A stretch of 64,000 nt of DNA from a virus, in the UHGV virus genome UHGV-1370579. One strand, 5' to 3'. The position numbers and the translations under genes were made by a program. How positions within the stretch are numbered: position 1 is the first letter of the stretch; each line of letters starts with the position of its first letter. Shown in pieces: positions 34,063 through 45,238 of this stretch. A model generated the notes under the pieces. The model did no database searches and was not told where the DNA came from. It worked only from the letters and a program-made list of their open reading frames with translations.

Positions 34063-34233
34063 TGAAATCAGTTGTAATTATTGGTGTTAATACTCGCGGT
34101 ATTCGTACTACGAAAACTGTTAAAACTTCCAACGTTGCTGAGATCACTACGAACCCTAAAAAGTTTGATTTCGCCAAAGTCTCAGCAGTTATGACAGAAC
34201 AATCTTTTAACCAAGCGTTAGGAATGAAATAAT
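34063..34233 (+). CDS. hypothetical small protein (56 aa, below the ORF-track cutoff)
   Basis: The ATG lies 8 nt after the SD sequence gagaggaag. The ORF ends with TAATG, which overlaps the next start. Confidence 0.35.
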
Positions 34234-34675
34234 GGAAGAGAATATTTTAGATGTTTTGCGTAGAGCTTTGCAGGATTCTAAGTTTAATGGTTCTGATAAA
34301 GAAGTCGCTAAAAGCTACCAGACCATAATCGGGGATCTTCAGCGTATTGATAAAGATTTCATCACTTCTGAACAATTTGTGTCTTATCTCAAAGCTCAAC
34401 TAAAAAGCATTAACCAGATGAAAGCTAAACTTCATGGTCAAGATCTTGATAGTTATAGCTTGCAGTCCGCTCAGTATGAATACATTCTAAATAAGTGGTT
34501 GCAGGAGTATCTGCCTCCCCAGTTATCTGATACTGAGATTCGTAAATACTTTGCAGAATTAGTTAAGCTAAACCCTGGAATTACAAAAGGTATGCTGATG
34601 AAAGCGATTAAGGAAGAATTTCCTGGGCGTTATGATGGTGGTACTGCTGCTCAGATTGCTGGCGAATTTAATTAA
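34232..34675 (+). CDS. YqeY/GatB C-terminal-domain-like protein
   Basis: The 147-aa product has a C-terminal segment GITKGMLMKAIKEEFPGRYDGGTAAQIAGEF that resembles the YqeY family. Confidence 0.45.
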   Translation: MEENILDVLRRALQDSKFNGSDKEVAKSYQTIIGDLQRIDKDFITSEQFVSYLKAQLKSINQMKAKLHGQDLDSYSLQSAQYEYILNKWLQEYLPPQLSDTEIRKYFAELVKLNPGITKGMLMKAIKEEFPGRYDGGTAAQIAGEFN

Positions 34676-34712: not shown

Positions 34713-34935
34713 ATATTCATAAATTAGAGAACAGCGAGCCGATTACGCTGAGTGCAGAATCCCAACCGGAGCGCATTGAATAGAGTCGGTGGGTTAGTTG
34801 GAAAACTAGTACACAGGGGGCGGCAATCCCGGTTAGTGGCTAGAACGTGTAAAATGGGGCGTCTGAAACCTCTCCCCTAAACTCTTCTCTAATTTACTGA
34901 TAGTGGGGTGTGGAAATCACTTATGTAGTAACACT

Positions 34936-35008
34936 GCCGATCTAGTATAAAACGGTATTATCAAGCCGTAACTGGTGGAAGATGTAGGTTCGAATCCTAC
35001 GGTCGGTA
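34936..35008 (+). tRNA. tRNA-like gene; anticodon uncertain (possibly CGU)
   Basis: The acceptor is gccgatc/ggtcggt and the T-arm is gtagg-ttcgaat-cctac. The D and anticodon stems are poor. Confidence 0.4.
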
Positions 35009-35510
35009 AGAACTGGATAACTGGTGCTTTTAATGTAAAAGCTTCCGAGGTTAGTTGCGCACTGCCTAAACCACGCGGTAGTTGGTTCCAGACTAACCAA
35101 CCAGTCTGCTGAATAGTTTTATTACGATTTAACTATGTCCAGGCTAAAGAAGAACTTTAGAAGGTATTCTAGGATAGTGAAGTTCTTTCTCCATATCGGA
35201 GTAGTTTTTCAAACTATCCACAAAGTGGGAAATGCTGGCATGAGAGATGCCACTAATGGTGCACAATAGCACAGGTAATTCGCGATAACTCCTGTTGAGT
35301 AGCAGCAAAAAGGTGGGGAGTCATGACCCTAACCTAACCGAGTCCTCAGTATACCGCAGGACATAACCACTAAGTCACCTTGACTTAAACTGGAAAATAA
35401 TAGACGTTACTGTATTTTGTCTTGAAATACTTAATGAGTGAGACTTATGACTCTCCCGGTATCGTCTGTATTTTTAAGAGTTTTTACGAGAGTTCTTAAA
35501 AATACTTAAA

Positions 35511-35585
35511 CGGGGTGTAGTCTAAGGGAGAGGCAGGAGTCTTCTAAATTCCTTTATGCAGGTTCGAATCCTGTCACCTCGGCCA
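35511..35585 (+). tRNA. tRNA-Arg (anticodon UCU), CCA encoded
   Basis: The acceptor is cggggtg/cacctcg and the anticodon loop is cttctaa. The T-arm is gcagg-ttcgaat-cctgt, followed by gcca. Confidence 0.65.
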
Positions 35586-39212: not shown

Positions 39213-39290
39213 GGTTCTCAAGCTCATATGGTATGAGCACCCAGCTCATAACTGGAAGGTACGTAGGTTCGAATCCTCGGGGAGCCACCA
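39213..39290 (+). tRNA. tRNA-like with anticodon CAU (Met or Ile2); weak T-stem
   Basis: The acceptor is ggttctc/gggagcc with wobble pairs. The anticodon loop is ctcataa. Only 3 of 5 T-stem base pairs form. Confidence 0.4.
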
Positions 39291-42228: not shown

Positions 42229-42576
42229 ATGCGTAATGCTAAAGAAGAGCTGTTACTCGCCTTAAAAAATACCAATTCTAAAGTTAAGTGTATTAAAATA
42301 GAATTTGGGTATTATGGGGATAAAAAAGTCTGGGTATTACCTTTAGGCTATACAGAAGAAGATATTGAGAATTTTCTTAATAATCTAGACTTTGAGTATG
42401 ATTCTGGATACGGTGGACAATTACTTTATGGTAATGTATGGTTTGCCGATGGAACTTGGCTAGAACGTGGGGAATATGATGGTGCTGAGTGGTGGGAATA
42501 CAAGGCCACCCCAGCAATCCCAGAGGATTGCCGAACAATTAATGGTGAAGTAGATAATACTTTACGGTTAAACTAA
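42229..42576 (+). CDS. hypothetical protein
   Basis: This is a 115-aa ORF. Confidence 0.5.
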   Translation: MRNAKEELLLALKNTNSKVKCIKIEFGYYGDKKVWVLPLGYTEEDIENFLNNLDFEYDSGYGGQLLYGNVWFADGTWLERGEYDGAEWWEYKATPAIPEDCRTINGEVDNTLRLN

Positions 42577-42698
42577 CAGAATTTCAGTGCAGAACACGGA
42601 GCTAGCAATTCGGAAGTGCTGACTCATGATAAGCTGCCTATGTACTTGCGAAGCGGTCGTGTCCAAGACTCGGACTCTTGCACTGAAAACAATCAAAC

Positions 42699-42822
42699 AT
42701 TCTAGCGTGGTTGATGGGGAAACCAGCTTGGCGAGGGCAGAAGCTCGTTCGATTCGAGTGAAAGAATGGTTCTCGTAAGTCCGCACAAGTGATAACAGGT
42801 TCGAGTCCTGTCTAGAATGACA
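42699..42822 (+). ncRNA. 124-nt tRNA-like structured RNA closed by a 7-bp acceptor-like stem
   Basis: The stem attctag/ctagaat encloses four internal hairpins, including two ttcgaNt T-arm-like loops. No ORF covers this span. Confidence 0.3.
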
Positions 42823-42968
42823 CTATAAAGTCTACTTATTATGTAGGTTCCGATAGATCGGCGGGTCTATTCTGGCATTTAAGAGAGGTCTCGCAAACTT
42901 CTTTGTCAGCCGTGGGGTTGGTAGCCTCCAGGTAGCCTACACAATAAGTAAATTTATTAAAAATTCAT

Positions 42969-42997
42969 TTGCTATTCAGCTTAATTATCTTTATAAT
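42969..42997 (+). promoter_or_regulatory. stereotyped phage promoter
   Basis: The sequence is aaaaattcatTTGCTAttcagcttaattatcttTATAATatattttataaagtgaagag. Confidence 0.6.
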
Positions 42998-43029
42998 ATA
43001 TTTTATAAAGTGAAGAGAAGGAAAGCAAA

Positions 43030-43188
43030 ATGAAACACAAGATAGCTCAAGTTTTTATGGCATTATGGTGTATGCCCATAGCTATAACAGCATTTAATCT
43101 AGATACTTTTACTATAGAAGAAAAATGTATCGGATTAGTTAGCGGCTTTAGTATGCTGGGCTTATCTTTGTTGTGGTTGAAGAAATAA
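43030..43188 (+). CDS. hypothetical small hydrophobic peptide (52 aa)
   Basis: The product is MKHKIAQVFMALWCMPIAITAF...LSLLWLKK, with an SD sequence agaaggaaag. It is below the ORF-track cutoff. Confidence 0.3.
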   Translation: MKHKIAQVFMALWCMPIAITAFNLDTFTIEEKCIGLVSGFSMLGLSLLWLKK

Positions 43189-45100: not shown

Positions 45101-45153
45101 AAATTCTTGGAATATGCCGGAATTGGTAGACGGGACTGCCGAATAGGTTTACT

Positions 45154-45238
45154 AGGAACATCCACTCCTAGAAATATACCTTAAAAGCGGTTGAGATAAA
45201 TGGTCTATCTCGTGAAGGTTCAACTCCTTCTGTTCCTT
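45154..45238 (+). tRNA. degenerate class-II-like tRNA element; no resolvable anticodon arm
   Basis: The acceptor-like pairing is aggaaca/tgttcct. The T-arm is gaagg-ttcaact-ccttc. A variable-arm-like hairpin gagata/tatctc is present. No CCA is encoded. Confidence 0.3.

What the first reader, a model, noticed from the sequence alone, without database searches (positions are those of the whole stretch)
42582..42822. A 240-nt ORF-free block contains a 10-bp long-range stem-closed domain and a 124-nt, four-armed tRNA-like RNA
Right after the stop of the 115-aa ORF, tttcagtgca (42582-42591) pairs perfectly with tgcactgaaa (42679-42688). The pair encloses about 85 nt that contain smaller hairpins. 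Directly downstream, attctag (42699-42705) pairs perfectly with ctagaat (42816-42822), like a tRNA acceptor stem. However, it closes 124 nt that hold four hairpins: tggtt/aacca, agctt/aagct, and two T-arm-like ttcgaNt loops (gctcg-ttcgatt-cgagt and acagg-ttcgagt-cctgt). That is too long for a tRNA, even a class II one. Alternatives include a tRNA-like structure with an inserted domain, a permuted or intron-containing tRNA, a tmRNA-like or other structured ncRNA, or one of the T5 small stable RNAs.
Basis: seen in the sequence. Interest (0 to 1): 0.65.

Follow-up and report, generated by a model that had tools for sequence, protein, structure and literature searches.

The report
T5 tRNA-like RNA2 and neighbour
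The 124-nt element is phage T5's long-annotated 'RNA2', a tRNA look-alike of unknown function whose anticodon loop is replaced by a conserved folded insert and which many large phages share. The stem-closed block in front of it is a separate, very conserved module whose RNA fold is not proven.

Summary
The window is a T5-like phage, and the finding lies in its tRNA cluster. The '124-nt tRNA-like RNA' (42699-42822) is the ortholog of T5/BF23 gene rna2, annotated 'tRNA-like stable RNA with unknown functions'. It is therefore already known, though never explained.

I found about 59 distinct homologs:
- in T5-like phages;
- in T4-like Acinetobacter phages;
- in uncultured phage contigs up to several hundred kb;
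- almost none in cellular genomes, and no match in Rfam.

Covariation strongly supports a tRNA body (acceptor, D and T arms, anticodon-like stem) carrying a conserved insert of about 55 nt. The insert has a GGGY/RUCC helix, a GUAA bulge, a 2-bp helix, a second T-arm-like hairpin and a strand with an invariant UGG.

It has no usable anticodon. Only 2 of 59 members encode a CCA end, against 88% of neighbouring tRNAs. I read it as a non-decoding tRNA mimic; its function is still unknown.

The upstream domain (42582-42688) is real and unannotated. It is the most conserved stretch locally and behaves as a cassette bounded by its 10-bp stem. Its fold is not statistically supported and shows no compensatory changes.

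The parts
42229..42576 (+). 115-aa ORF, ortholog of T5.067 (context only; not part of the RNA elements)
   Evidence: ORF list. T5 annotation. Matches phrog_3972, unknown function, E 3e-42, with no Pfam hit. In TrudiGerster, atrejo and SB9 this ORF is absent while domain 1 is kept.
42582..42688 (+). Domain 1: a 107-nt conserved noncoding cassette closed by a 10-bp stem (42582-42591 with 42679-42688). Not annotated in T5 or BF23.
   Evidence: Stem read directly from the sequence and seen in the folds. Found in 220 phage records at >=93% identity, 140 of them >=99%. Pairwise diversity is 0.011, against 0.168 at ORF third codon positions, 0.088 in the spacer and 0.019 in RNA2. Its presence/absence boundaries coincide with the feet of the stem. 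No compensatory changes. Fold z-score -1.18.
42699..42822 (+). RNA2: tRNA-like stable RNA. The T5 annotation maps to 42698-42822.
   Evidence: T5 NC_005859 rna2 and BF23 rna2 map here. Model R1 scores it 137.7 bits, against at most 36.5 bits for true tRNAs. Covariation.
42699..42705 (+). Acceptor stem, 5' strand; pairs with 42812-42818
   Evidence: All 7 pairs show compensatory changes; 91.4% of cells paired.
42708..42725 (+). D arm: stem 42708-42711 with 42722-42725; loop contains GGGG
   Evidence: All 4 pairs covary; 89.4% paired.
42726..42730 (+). Anticodon-like stem, 5' strand (gcttg); pairs with caagt at 42786-42790
   Evidence: All 5 pairs covary; 93.1% paired. The rival MFE pairing with taagt is no better than shuffles.
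42735..42738 (+). P_a, 5' strand GGGC; pairs with GUCC at 42779-42782. This sequesters the 'UCC' of the pseudo-anticodon.
   Evidence: G-C in 52/59, G-C in 58/59 and G-U in 58/59 sequences. The fourth pair is U-A 24, C-G 15, other 20, of which 17 are U-U. Support is moderate.
42740..42741 (+). P_b, 5' strand GA; pairs with UC at 42773-42774
   Evidence: First pair G-C in 50/59. Second pair U-A 18, A-U 16, G-C 11, U-G 3, C-G 2, G-U 1. Mutual information 1.04, the highest for any pair outside the model structure.
42743..42759 (+). Inner T-arm-like hairpin gctcg-UUCGAUU-cgagu (loop 42748-42754)
   Evidence: Of 5 pairs, 4 covary and 1 is invariant; 93.5% paired. The loop GUUCGAUUC is nearly invariant.
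42760..42778 (+). Conserved strand GAAAGAAUGGUUC (invariant GG at 42768-42769, within the UGG at 42767-42769), then the P_b 3' strand, then the GUAA bulge (42775-42778)
   Evidence: Column conservation across 59 distinct sequences. Any role as a partner of the T-loop or of a CCA end is inference only.
42795..42811 (+). Canonical T arm acagg-UUCGAGU-ccugu
   Evidence: Of 5 pairs, 4 covary; 95.2% paired.
42841..42943 (+). RNAIV, an annotated T5 stable RNA of unknown function (context, same ORF-free block)
   Evidence: T5 and BF23 annotation. Contributes to the fold z-score of -2.86 for 42577-43030.
42969..42997 (+). Promoter P13a (TTGCTA-17-TATAAT), which ends the block
   Evidence: Consensus scan. 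T5 annotation of P13a.

Best explanation
The block holds two separate RNA-level modules of a T5-like tRNA operon.

(1) RNA2, 42699-42822. This is the ortholog of T5/BF23 RNA2 and a member of a phage-specific family of non-decoding tRNA mimics.
- It keeps a normal tRNA top half: a 7-bp acceptor stem, a D arm with GG, and a T arm.
- The 7-nt anticodon loop is replaced by a conserved module of about 55 nt. That module extends the anticodon-like stem through the GGGY/RUCC helix P_a, a GUAA bulge and the 2-bp helix P_b. It ends in a second T-loop hairpin plus a single strand with an invariant UGG.
- Inferred biogenesis: it is co-transcribed with the neighbouring tRNAs, since no promoter or terminator lies nearby. 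It is then cut out by the tRNA-processing enzymes (RNase P at 42698/42699 and 3' trimming), because only the tRNA-like top half is needed for that.
- Inferred function: it has no free anticodon and almost never an encoded CCA, so it is not an amino-acid adaptor. The most likely mechanism is action in trans as a tRNA-shaped ligand or decoy. The tRNA half would recruit a tRNA-recognising host or phage factor, and the conserved distal module (a second 'elbow', or a CCA-end-binding UGG) would provide the specific activity. The partner is unknown.

(2) Domain 1, 42582-42688. This is an independent cassette sitting in the array like a tRNA gene. Processing of its neighbours would release an RNA of about 107 nt whose ends are protected by the 10-bp stem, as in T5 RNAIII and RNAIV. 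That such an RNA accumulates is inferred, not shown.
For: Identity:
- 95.8% identity and synteny with T5 NC_005859, where rna2 is annotated 'tRNA-like stable RNA with unknown functions'. BF23 carries the same annotation.

Family and structure:
- Model R1 finds 68 homologs (59 distinct) at 46.7-139 bits, while ordinary tRNAs score at most 36.5 bits. There is one copy in the window.
- The 7 helices give 91.7% paired cells against 58.3% in shuffles. There are 641 cells with changes on both sides, against 195 in shuffles. The covariation score is 0.773 against 0.175. No shuffle of 500 reached these values, and the slid controls gave 31-49% paired.
- P_b and P_a were found by a mutual-information scan.

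Not a tRNA:
- No ARAGORN or Rfam call.
- Permissive ARAGORN needs a 48-nt 'intron' and yields a loop with C at position 37.
- Encoded CCA in 2/59 family members, against 432/492 neighbouring tRNAs.

Phage-specific and always in tRNA arrays:
- Same strand as neighbouring tRNAs and 3-6 nt from them.
- Present in T5-like genera, in T4-like Acinetobacter phages and in contigs up to hundreds of kb.
- Only 2 true hits in representatives of 185,579 bacterial and archaeal species. Both are on MAG contigs of 330 and 167 kb.

Co-transcription:
- No promoter or terminator between tRNA-Asp and P13a.

Domain 1:
- Lowest diversity in the region.
- Found in 220 records at >=93% identity.
- Its boundaries equal the feet of the stem. 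In TrudiGerster it lies 2 nt after a CCA-ending tRNA-like gene and 10 nt before RNA2.
Against: - No expression, end-mapping or interaction data could be examined here. 'Stable RNA' rests on the GenBank annotation of T5 and BF23, and I could not read the primary papers.
- The function is wholly inferred. No conserved neighbouring protein points to a partner.
- RNA2 and domain 1 are dispensable in at least one isolate. PQ002169 carries a 7.2-kb deletion joining the T arm of tRNA-Arg(TCT) to the T arm of RNA2.
- P_a rests on three invariant pairs and one covarying pair, which is U-U in 17 sequences.
- An alternative helix specific to the T5 clade (CGAGGGC/GUUCUCG) is available in this window.
- Domain 1 has a non-significant fold energy and no compensatory change, and some substitutions break predicted inner hairpins.
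- Domain 1 is absent from many relatives that keep RNA2.
- Domain 1 was not annotated among the T5 stable RNAs.
Confidence: 0.6

Rival explanations
1. RNA2 is an intron-containing tRNA gene (tRNA-Arg CCG). The 48-nt insert is spliced out to give a working tRNA.
For: ARAGORN in permissive mode with introns calls tRNA-Arg(CCG) at 42699-42819, with a 48-nt intron after position 33. The window otherwise has only tRNA-Arg(TCT).
Against: - The call appears only at a lowered threshold.
- The resulting loop has G32 and C37. In the family, position 37 is always a pyrimidine (CCGCA or CCAUA).
- The UCC is paired with the conserved GGG.
- The insert is the most conserved part of the molecule, while the 'exons' vary freely.
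- 48 nt is far below the size of self-splicing introns, and no Rfam intron or ribozyme hit appears.
- CCA is encoded in 2/59 members, against 88% of neighbouring tRNAs.
- The T5 annotation describes the full-length 125-nt species as the stable RNA.
Confidence: 0.05
2. Domain 1 is not a gene. It is either a chance inverted repeat or just a protective or processing hairpin at the 3' end of the T5.067 mRNA (the 5' leader of RNA2).
For: - 83 comparable inverted repeats occur in the window.
- Fold z-scores are -1.18 and -1.90, similar on both strands.
- No compensatory change in 36 predicted pairs.
- It starts 5 nt after the ORF stop codon.
- It is absent from many relatives.
Against: - It is the most conserved stretch locally: diversity 0.011, against 0.042 for codon positions 1+2 of the adjacent ORF. 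That is far more than a generic hairpin needs.
- It is kept at 93-97% identity in phages where the upstream ORF is replaced by tRNA genes, so it is not tied to that mRNA.
- Its indel boundaries match the stem.
Confidence: 0.3
3. The block is protein-coding on the minus strand, as some GenBank records annotate: the 72-aa ORF at 42568-42786, or other small ORFs.
For: the ORF listing finds a 72-aa GTG ORF on the minus strand and several shorter ones. Many records place a 'hypothetical protein', or even an 'Rz-like spanin', over the region.
Against: - RNA-type covariation on the + strand, with compensatory pair changes, across 59 sequences.
- Only 1 of 7 variable sites in domain 1 (the sites listed) falls on a third codon position of that frame, by my own count.
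- The T5 and BF23 curated annotation has no CDS here.
Confidence: 0.02
4. RNA2 is a decaying pseudogene or recombination scar of a tRNA, with no function of its own.
For: tRNA clusters in these phages recombine through shared T arms, as in the chimeric tRNA-Arg/RNA2 of PQ002169. RNA2 is dispensable in that isolate.
Against: Helices are maintained by compensatory change, and insert motifs are nearly invariant, across very distant phages: Demerecviridae, T4-like Acinetobacter phages and contigs of jumbo-phage size.
Confidence: 0.02

Closest known systems
Phage T5 / BF23 RNA2 (gene rna2, T5s06; GenBank NC_005859 32959-33083, NC_042564 5701-5825)
   Same: Orthologous. It occupies the same position between the T5.067 ORF and RNAIV/P13a. 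The block (window 42580-43029) is 95.8% identical to T5, and the annotated length of 125 nt matches.
   Different: Nothing substantive. The window copy differs from T5 by a few substitutions, for example G/A at 42726 and A/G in the T arm. T5 starts the feature one base earlier, at 42698.
Phage T4 species 1 and species 2 RNAs (rnaC, rnaD)
   Same: Small stable RNAs of unknown function encoded at the end of a phage tRNA cluster and co-processed with tRNAs. rnaC has a T arm and an acceptor-like end.
   Different: Not homologous. Model R1 gives rnaC 19.1 bits (E 0.025), below ordinary tRNAs, and gives rnaD nothing. Neither has the AGGGYAG...GUAANUCCGCA insert.
Bacterial Y RNA-like YrlA (Rfam RF02553; Chen et al. 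2014, PMC4201824)
   Same: A non-decoding RNA that mimics the tRNA D arm, T arm and acceptor, and is handled by tRNA enzymes (RNase P, the CCA-adding enzyme, TruB and DusA in that paper). It is also found in phages.
   Different: [quoted passage not shown] RNA2 has its ends in the acceptor stem and no Ro60 gene nearby. RF02553 gives no hit at RNA2 positions.
Bacterial tRNA genes with group I introns in the anticodon loop
   Same: An insertion inside the anticodon loop of a tRNA-shaped gene.
   Different: Those introns are typically about 200 nt or more and self-splicing, and they leave a canonical 7-nt loop (my own knowledge). Here the insert is 48-55 nt, matches no Rfam intron model, and the flanks cannot form a canonical loop.
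tmRNA tRNA-like domain
   Same: A tRNA-like acceptor and T arm with a large non-tRNA body between them.
   Different: ARAGORN makes no tmRNA call and the Rfam tmRNA model does not match at RNA2 positions. There is no tag reading frame. RNA2 keeps a normal D arm and an anticodon-like stem. There is no G3-U70 pair and no encoded CCA.

Membership tests
T5 RNA2 (orthology) | Sequence identity and conserved position in the T5 tRNA region | tested here: met
   The block (window 42580-43029) is 95.8% identical to NC_005859. rna2 maps to 42698-42822, flanked by the T5.067 ORF and RNAIV/P13a. BF23 is the same.
T5 RNA2 (orthology) | Accumulates as a stable RNA of about 125 nt in infected cells | not testable with these tools
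   Known only from the GenBank note 'tRNA-like stable RNA with unknown functions'. No primary paper was found in the library.
Canonical tRNA (Rfam RF00005) | 7-bp acceptor stem, D arm with GG, T arm with a GTTCRANYC loop | tested here: met
   All three are present and covary.
Canonical tRNA (Rfam RF00005) | 7-nt anticodon loop with U33 and a purine at position 37 | tested here: not met
   The loop is replaced by about 55 nt. The best pseudo-loop is G-U-CCG-C-A, with C37 (a pyrimidine across the whole family), and its UCC is paired.
Canonical tRNA (Rfam RF00005) | Detected by tRNA models; 3' CCA as in the phage's other tRNAs | tested here: not met
   No hit from default ARAGORN or from Rfam at gathering threshold or at E<=10. 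CCA is encoded in 2/59 members, against 432/492 neighbouring tRNAs.
tmRNA | tRNA-Ala-like domain plus a tag-peptide reading frame | tested here: not met
   ARAGORN's tmRNA search is negative. RF00023 gives no match at the locus.
Group I intron in a tRNA | Match to an intron covariance model; size sufficient for a catalytic core | tested here: not met
   No Rfam hit at E<=10. The insert is 48 nt.
YrlA / bacterial Y RNA | Match to RF02553; Ro60-binding stem; rsr gene adjacent | tested here: not met
   No RF02553 hit at RNA2 positions in the window or in 4 homolog loci. No shared neighbouring protein family. No Ro60 gene among the few neighbouring ORFs scanned, but a systematic search for Ro60 was not run.
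T4 rnaC / rnaD | Sequence and structure homology | tested here: not met
   Model R1 gives 19.1 bits (E 0.025) on rnaC and nothing on rnaD. The insert motifs are absent.
T5 stable RNAs (RNAI, RNAIII, RNAIV) as a class, for domain 1 | RNA of about 103-107 nt in the tRNA operon with its 5' and 3' ends paired in a terminal stem | tested here: inconclusive
   Length (107 nt), terminal stem and position fit. There is no sequence similarity to those RNAs or to anything else in the window. The fold is not significant. Expression is untested.

The most novel reading that the evidence does not exclude
RNA2 is the founding member of a widespread, phage-restricted class of non-decoding tRNA mimics that is absent from Rfam. 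Its conserved anticodon-arm module (GGGY/RUCC helix, GUAA bulge, second T-loop, invariant UGG) acts in trans on a tRNA-recognising factor. Candidate roles are a decoy against tRNA-targeting host defence and a binder of tRNA elbows or CCA ends. The adjacent domain 1 would then be an additional, so far unannotated, stable RNA of T5-like phages.
Probability: 0.3. Interest if true: 0.7.

Novelty: already known. Interest (0 to 1): 0.4.

Why it matters
On its own the finding rediscovers an annotated T5 gene.

It matters because the small stable RNAs of T5 and T4 have had no assigned function since they were first described decades ago (my own knowledge). This analysis adds several things:
- RNA2 is not a T5 oddity. 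It is a conserved family in many large phages that carry tRNA clusters.
- It has a covariation-proven architecture, no anticodon and no encoded CCA end.
- This yields a concrete model, an alignment and mutational targets (P_a, P_b, the GUAA bulge, the inner T-loop, the UGG) for testing whether phages deploy tRNA mimics against tRNA-directed defences or to manipulate tRNA-handling enzymes.

It also flags likely mis-annotations. Many GenBank records place a 'hypothetical protein' or a 'spanin' over these RNA genes.

Tried and rejected
- **Default detectors.** ARAGORN and Rfam, at gathering threshold and at E<=10, find nothing at the locus. The same holds at homolog loci.
- **Single-sequence MFE model of RNA2**. 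Its pairing gcttg/taagt (45.7% paired, equal to shuffles) and its helix CGAGGGC/GUUCUCG (66.0% against 66.8% in shuffles) are not conserved. I rejected both in favour of the covariation model.
53.6% paired, so rejected.
- **Paralogy of RNA2 with other T5 RNAs in the window** (RNA1, RNA2H, RNA3, RNAIV) or with T4 rnaC/rnaD. Model R1 gives no significant hits.
- **Domain 1 as a decayed tRNA-Lys, or as a homolog of the My1 upstream hairpin.** Alignment scores are no better than shuffles: 94/500, 48/500 and 221/500 shuffles reached the observed score.
- **Paralogs of domain 1 in the window.** None convincing; the best has E 0.014 over 36 nt.
- **A conserved protein neighbour of RNA2 across 32 diverse loci.** None found. 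The only recurring items are homing endonucleases and a YqeY-like protein in 4 loci. A tblastn search with the T5-type YqeY protein reaches only T5-like phages, so co-occurrence could not be tested.
- **Literature.** I found no open paper describing T5 RNA2 or this family.

Full report
**Origin and context**

The window is a T5-like phage (Demerecviridae). The 1-kb region around the finding is 98.3% identical to Salmonella phage VSe12 and matches 431 phage records. It lies in a + strand tRNA cluster of 25 ARAGORN tRNAs.

At a 60-aa threshold, the ORF-free block runs from the stop codon of a 115-aa ORF (42229-42576) to a 52-aa ORF starting at 43030.

The curated T5 record NC_005859 aligns at 95.8% over the block. 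It annotates two features here:
- rna2, 'tRNA-like stable RNA with unknown functions', which maps to window 42698-42822;
- rnaIV, which maps to 42841-42943, followed by promoter P13a.

BF23 carries the same annotation. T5 lists further stable RNAs elsewhere in the cluster: RNAI, RNAIII, RNA1, RNA2H, RNA3 and RNAX. Nothing is annotated over 42577-42697.

**Checking the observation**

Both long-range stems exist. The 3' acceptor strand ctagaat is at 42812-42818, not 42816-42822; position 42822 is the end of the 4-nt tail.

Default ARAGORN, Rfam at gathering threshold and Rfam at E<=10 report nothing here. The single-sequence fold of 42577-42830 is unremarkable, with z = -0.34.

**What the tRNA-like unit is**

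This places the anticodon-like stem as gcttg/caagt, not the gcttg/taagt of the MFE fold.

Distant BLAST hits in Pectobacterium phage My1, Klebsiella phage KPN4 and an Acinetobacter phage showed the same layout with different stem sequences. I then collected more homologs:
- pattern scans of IMG/VR, metagenomes and genome representatives, built on the conserved insert motifs;
- a covariance model, R1.

These gave 68 homologs, 59 of them distinct, scoring 46.7-139 bits. Ordinary tRNAs reach at most 36.5 bits by skipping the insert. The window has exactly one copy.

The five starting helices are strongly supported:

| Measure | Observed | Shuffled |
|---|---|---|
| Cells paired, first set of 37 distinct sequences | 93.0% | 54.4% |

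A mutual-information scan then revealed two further helices inside the insert:
- **P_b**: G42740-C42774 and A42741-U42773. The second pair occurs as U-A 18, A-U 16, G-C 11.
- **P_a**: GGGC 42735-42738 with GUCC 42779-42782. Three pairs are near-invariant and complementary. The fourth is U-A 24, C-G 15, U-U 17.

With all seven helices on 59 distinct sequences:

| Measure | Observed | Shuffled |
|---|---|---|
| Cells paired | 91.7% | 58.3% |
| Cells with changes on both sides | 641 | 195 |
| Covariation score | 0.773 | 0.175 |
| Shuffles reaching the observed value | 0 of 500 | |
| Cells paired in slid controls | | 31-49% |

The family consensus of the insert is:

N-C-N-AGGGYAG-N-[5-bp hairpin with GUUCGAUUC loop]-GAAAG-NAUGGUN-NC-GUAA-NUCCGCA

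It lies between the two strands of the anticodon-like stem.

**Why it is not a working tRNA**

- The only possible 7-nt loop has a pyrimidine at position 37 in every member.
- Its UCC is paired in P_a.
- Only 2 of 59 members encode CCA after the discriminator base. Of the ARAGORN tRNAs in the same loci, 432 of 492 do.
- The insert is more conserved than the tRNA body, which is the opposite of what is expected of an intron.
- No intron, ribozyme, tmRNA or YrlA model matches, either in the window or at homolog loci.

**Distribution**

The family occurs in:
- Tequintavirus, Epseptimavirus, Myunavirus and Sugarlandvirus, and Serratia phage Slocum;
- T4-like Acinetobacter phages (Acj9, 133, AB1I1M-1);
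- uncultured phage contigs of 14-363 kb in IMG/VR, and larger ones in metagenomes.

Among representatives of 185,579 bacterial and archaeal species only two true hits appear. Both are on MAG contigs of 330 and 167 kb, sizes that suggest mis-binned phage DNA (my inference).

In every case I examined, the gene lies in a tRNA array on the same strand, a few nucleotides from its neighbours. No promoter or terminator separates it from them in the window. Only the T5 and BF23 records annotate it. Many others place hypothetical proteins over it.

**Mechanism: what is shown and what is inferred**

Shown:
- a tRNA-shaped top half;
- an extended, structured anticodon arm ending in a second T-loop hairpin;
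- no anticodon and no encoded CCA;
- restriction to phages;
- a position inside tRNA operons.

Inferred:
- release by RNase P and 3' trimming, like a tRNA;
- action in trans as a tRNA-shaped ligand or decoy, with specificity residing in the conserved distal module.

The invariant GG at 42768-42769 could play the role of G18-G19 for the inner T-loop, creating a second 'elbow'. Alternatively, as part of a UGG, it could pair with a CCA end as in T-box leaders and RNase P RNA. Both readings rest on analogy with established tRNA biology and were not tested.

No neighbouring protein is conserved across the family. A YqeY-like ('tRNA amidotransferase') gene recurs near it in four loci, and one exists in T5 and in the window (34232-34675). 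This is only a lead.

RNA2 is dispensable for at least one isolate. In PQ002169, a 7.2-kb deletion joins the T arm of tRNA-Arg(TCT) (window 35575) to the T arm of RNA2 (window 42796).

**Domain 1 (42582-42688)**

On structural grounds the stem is not significant:
- 83 inverted repeats of at least 10 bp occur within 130 nt in the window;
- the fold z-score is -1.18 on the + strand and -1.90 on the - strand;
- RNAalifold on 10 variants finds 36 pairs with no compensatory change;
- some substitutions break the predicted inner hairpins.

Yet the element is real:
- It is present in 220 phage records at >=93% identity, 140 of them >=99%.
- In 23 distinct sequences of T5-like phages it has the lowest diversity of the region:

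| Segment | Pairwise diversity |
|---|---|
| Domain 1 | 0.011 |
| RNA2 | 0.019 |
| ORF codon positions 1+2 | 0.042 |
| Spacer | 0.088 |
| ORF codon position 3 | 0.168 |

- It behaves as a cassette whose boundaries coincide with the stem. In TrudiGerster, atrejo and SB9 everything upstream of 42580 is unrelated, while domain 1 is kept. In TrudiGerster it starts 2 nt after a CCA-ending tRNA-like gene.
- In other Epseptimavirus genomes it is missing and similarity resumes at about 42690.
- It has no paralog in the window and no detectable relation to tRNAs.
- Its size and terminal stem resemble T5 RNAIII, RNAIV and RNAI.

I therefore think it most likely gives a discrete stem-protected RNA (about 0.55). 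The main rival is that it is merely a stabilising or processing hairpin (about 0.3).

**Comparison with known systems and verdict**

The tRNA-like RNA is already known as T5 RNA2. It works like other tRNA mimics (YrlA, the tmRNA tRNA-like domain, T4 species 1 RNA) but fails the membership tests for each of them. It is not in Rfam 15.

New here:
- the breadth of the family;
- the covariation-based architecture of the insert;
- the lack of an encoded CCA end;
- the recognition of domain 1 as a conserved unannotated module.

Function remains unknown.

Noticed in passing
window 45108-45238: T5 RNA1 ('tRNA-like stable RNA', 144 nt in T5) is called by permissive ARAGORN as tRNA-Leu(TAA) with a 40-nt insert in the anticodon loop. 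It is a second insert-bearing tRNA-like RNA in the same cluster. Its insert is unrelated to that of RNA2, and model R1 gives no hit.
   Followed up: partly
L004 (PQ002169) 510-700, equal to window 35468-35575 joined to 42796-42895: Salmonella phage vB_Sen_SG_WM_RUS_R2 carries a deletion of about 7.2 kb made by recombination between the near-identical T arms of tRNA-Arg(TCT) and RNA2. The result is a chimeric 'tRNA-Arg'. The deletion removes domain 1, most of RNA2 and about ten tRNA genes.
   Followed up: yes
L246 (TrudiGerster NC_105114) ~809-900; L006 (My1) ~1017-1095: An unannotated tRNA-like RNA of about 92 nt (GGGGTCTTAGCTAATCGGTTAAGCG...AGACTCCACCA). It has a 7-bp acceptor stem and an encoded CCA but a non-canonical body, and it sits between tRNA-Lys(CTT) and domain 1. 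A similar sequence occurs in My1.
   Followed up: no
window 42841-42943 (RNAIV); BF23 L002 1750-1823: RNAIV folds into a strong stem-closed structure; the whole 42577-43030 block has z = -2.86. In BF23 and many Epseptimavirus genomes a tRNA-Gly gene is inserted between RNA2 and RNAIV.
   Followed up: partly
window 34232-34675; L068 10551-11000; L041, L031, L032: A YqeY/GatB-tail-like protein (PF09424, phrog_1460 'tRNA amidotransferase') recurs within 4 kb of RNA2 homologs in four unrelated contigs. It is also encoded at the edge of the tRNA region in T5-like phages. It is a possible tRNA-binding partner, but this was not tested.
   Followed up: partly
window 39213-39290: A tRNA found by Rfam (38.2 bits) and by permissive ARAGORN (tRNA-Met CAT) is missed by default ARAGORN. 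By its position next to tRNA-Ser(GCU) it appears to be T5 tRNA-Ile2(CAU); I inferred this from gene order and did not align it.
   Followed up: partly
window 34935-35009: ARAGORN calls this tRNA-Ser with anticodon ACT. By my coordinate mapping, the T5 record annotates the corresponding gene (T5t25) simply as tRNA-Arg. The identity is unclear.
   Followed up: no
GenBank records matching window 42577-43030 (e.g. PV016700, NC_024139, MN022787): Many automated annotations place a 'hypothetical protein', or even an 'Rz-like spanin', over domain 1, RNA2 and RNAIV. Given the RNA covariation these are probably miscalls.
   Followed up: partly
L201 (CAZFPB010000002, 330 kb), L233 (CAVJPU010000002, 167 kb), L095 (RCUK01000002, 882 kb): RNA2 homologs lie on contigs binned as bacterial MAGs (a Pseudobdellovibrionaceae MAG and an unclassified 'bacterium') and on a very large metagenome contig. 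The first two are probably mis-binned large phages. The 882-kb contig was not examined.
   Followed up: no
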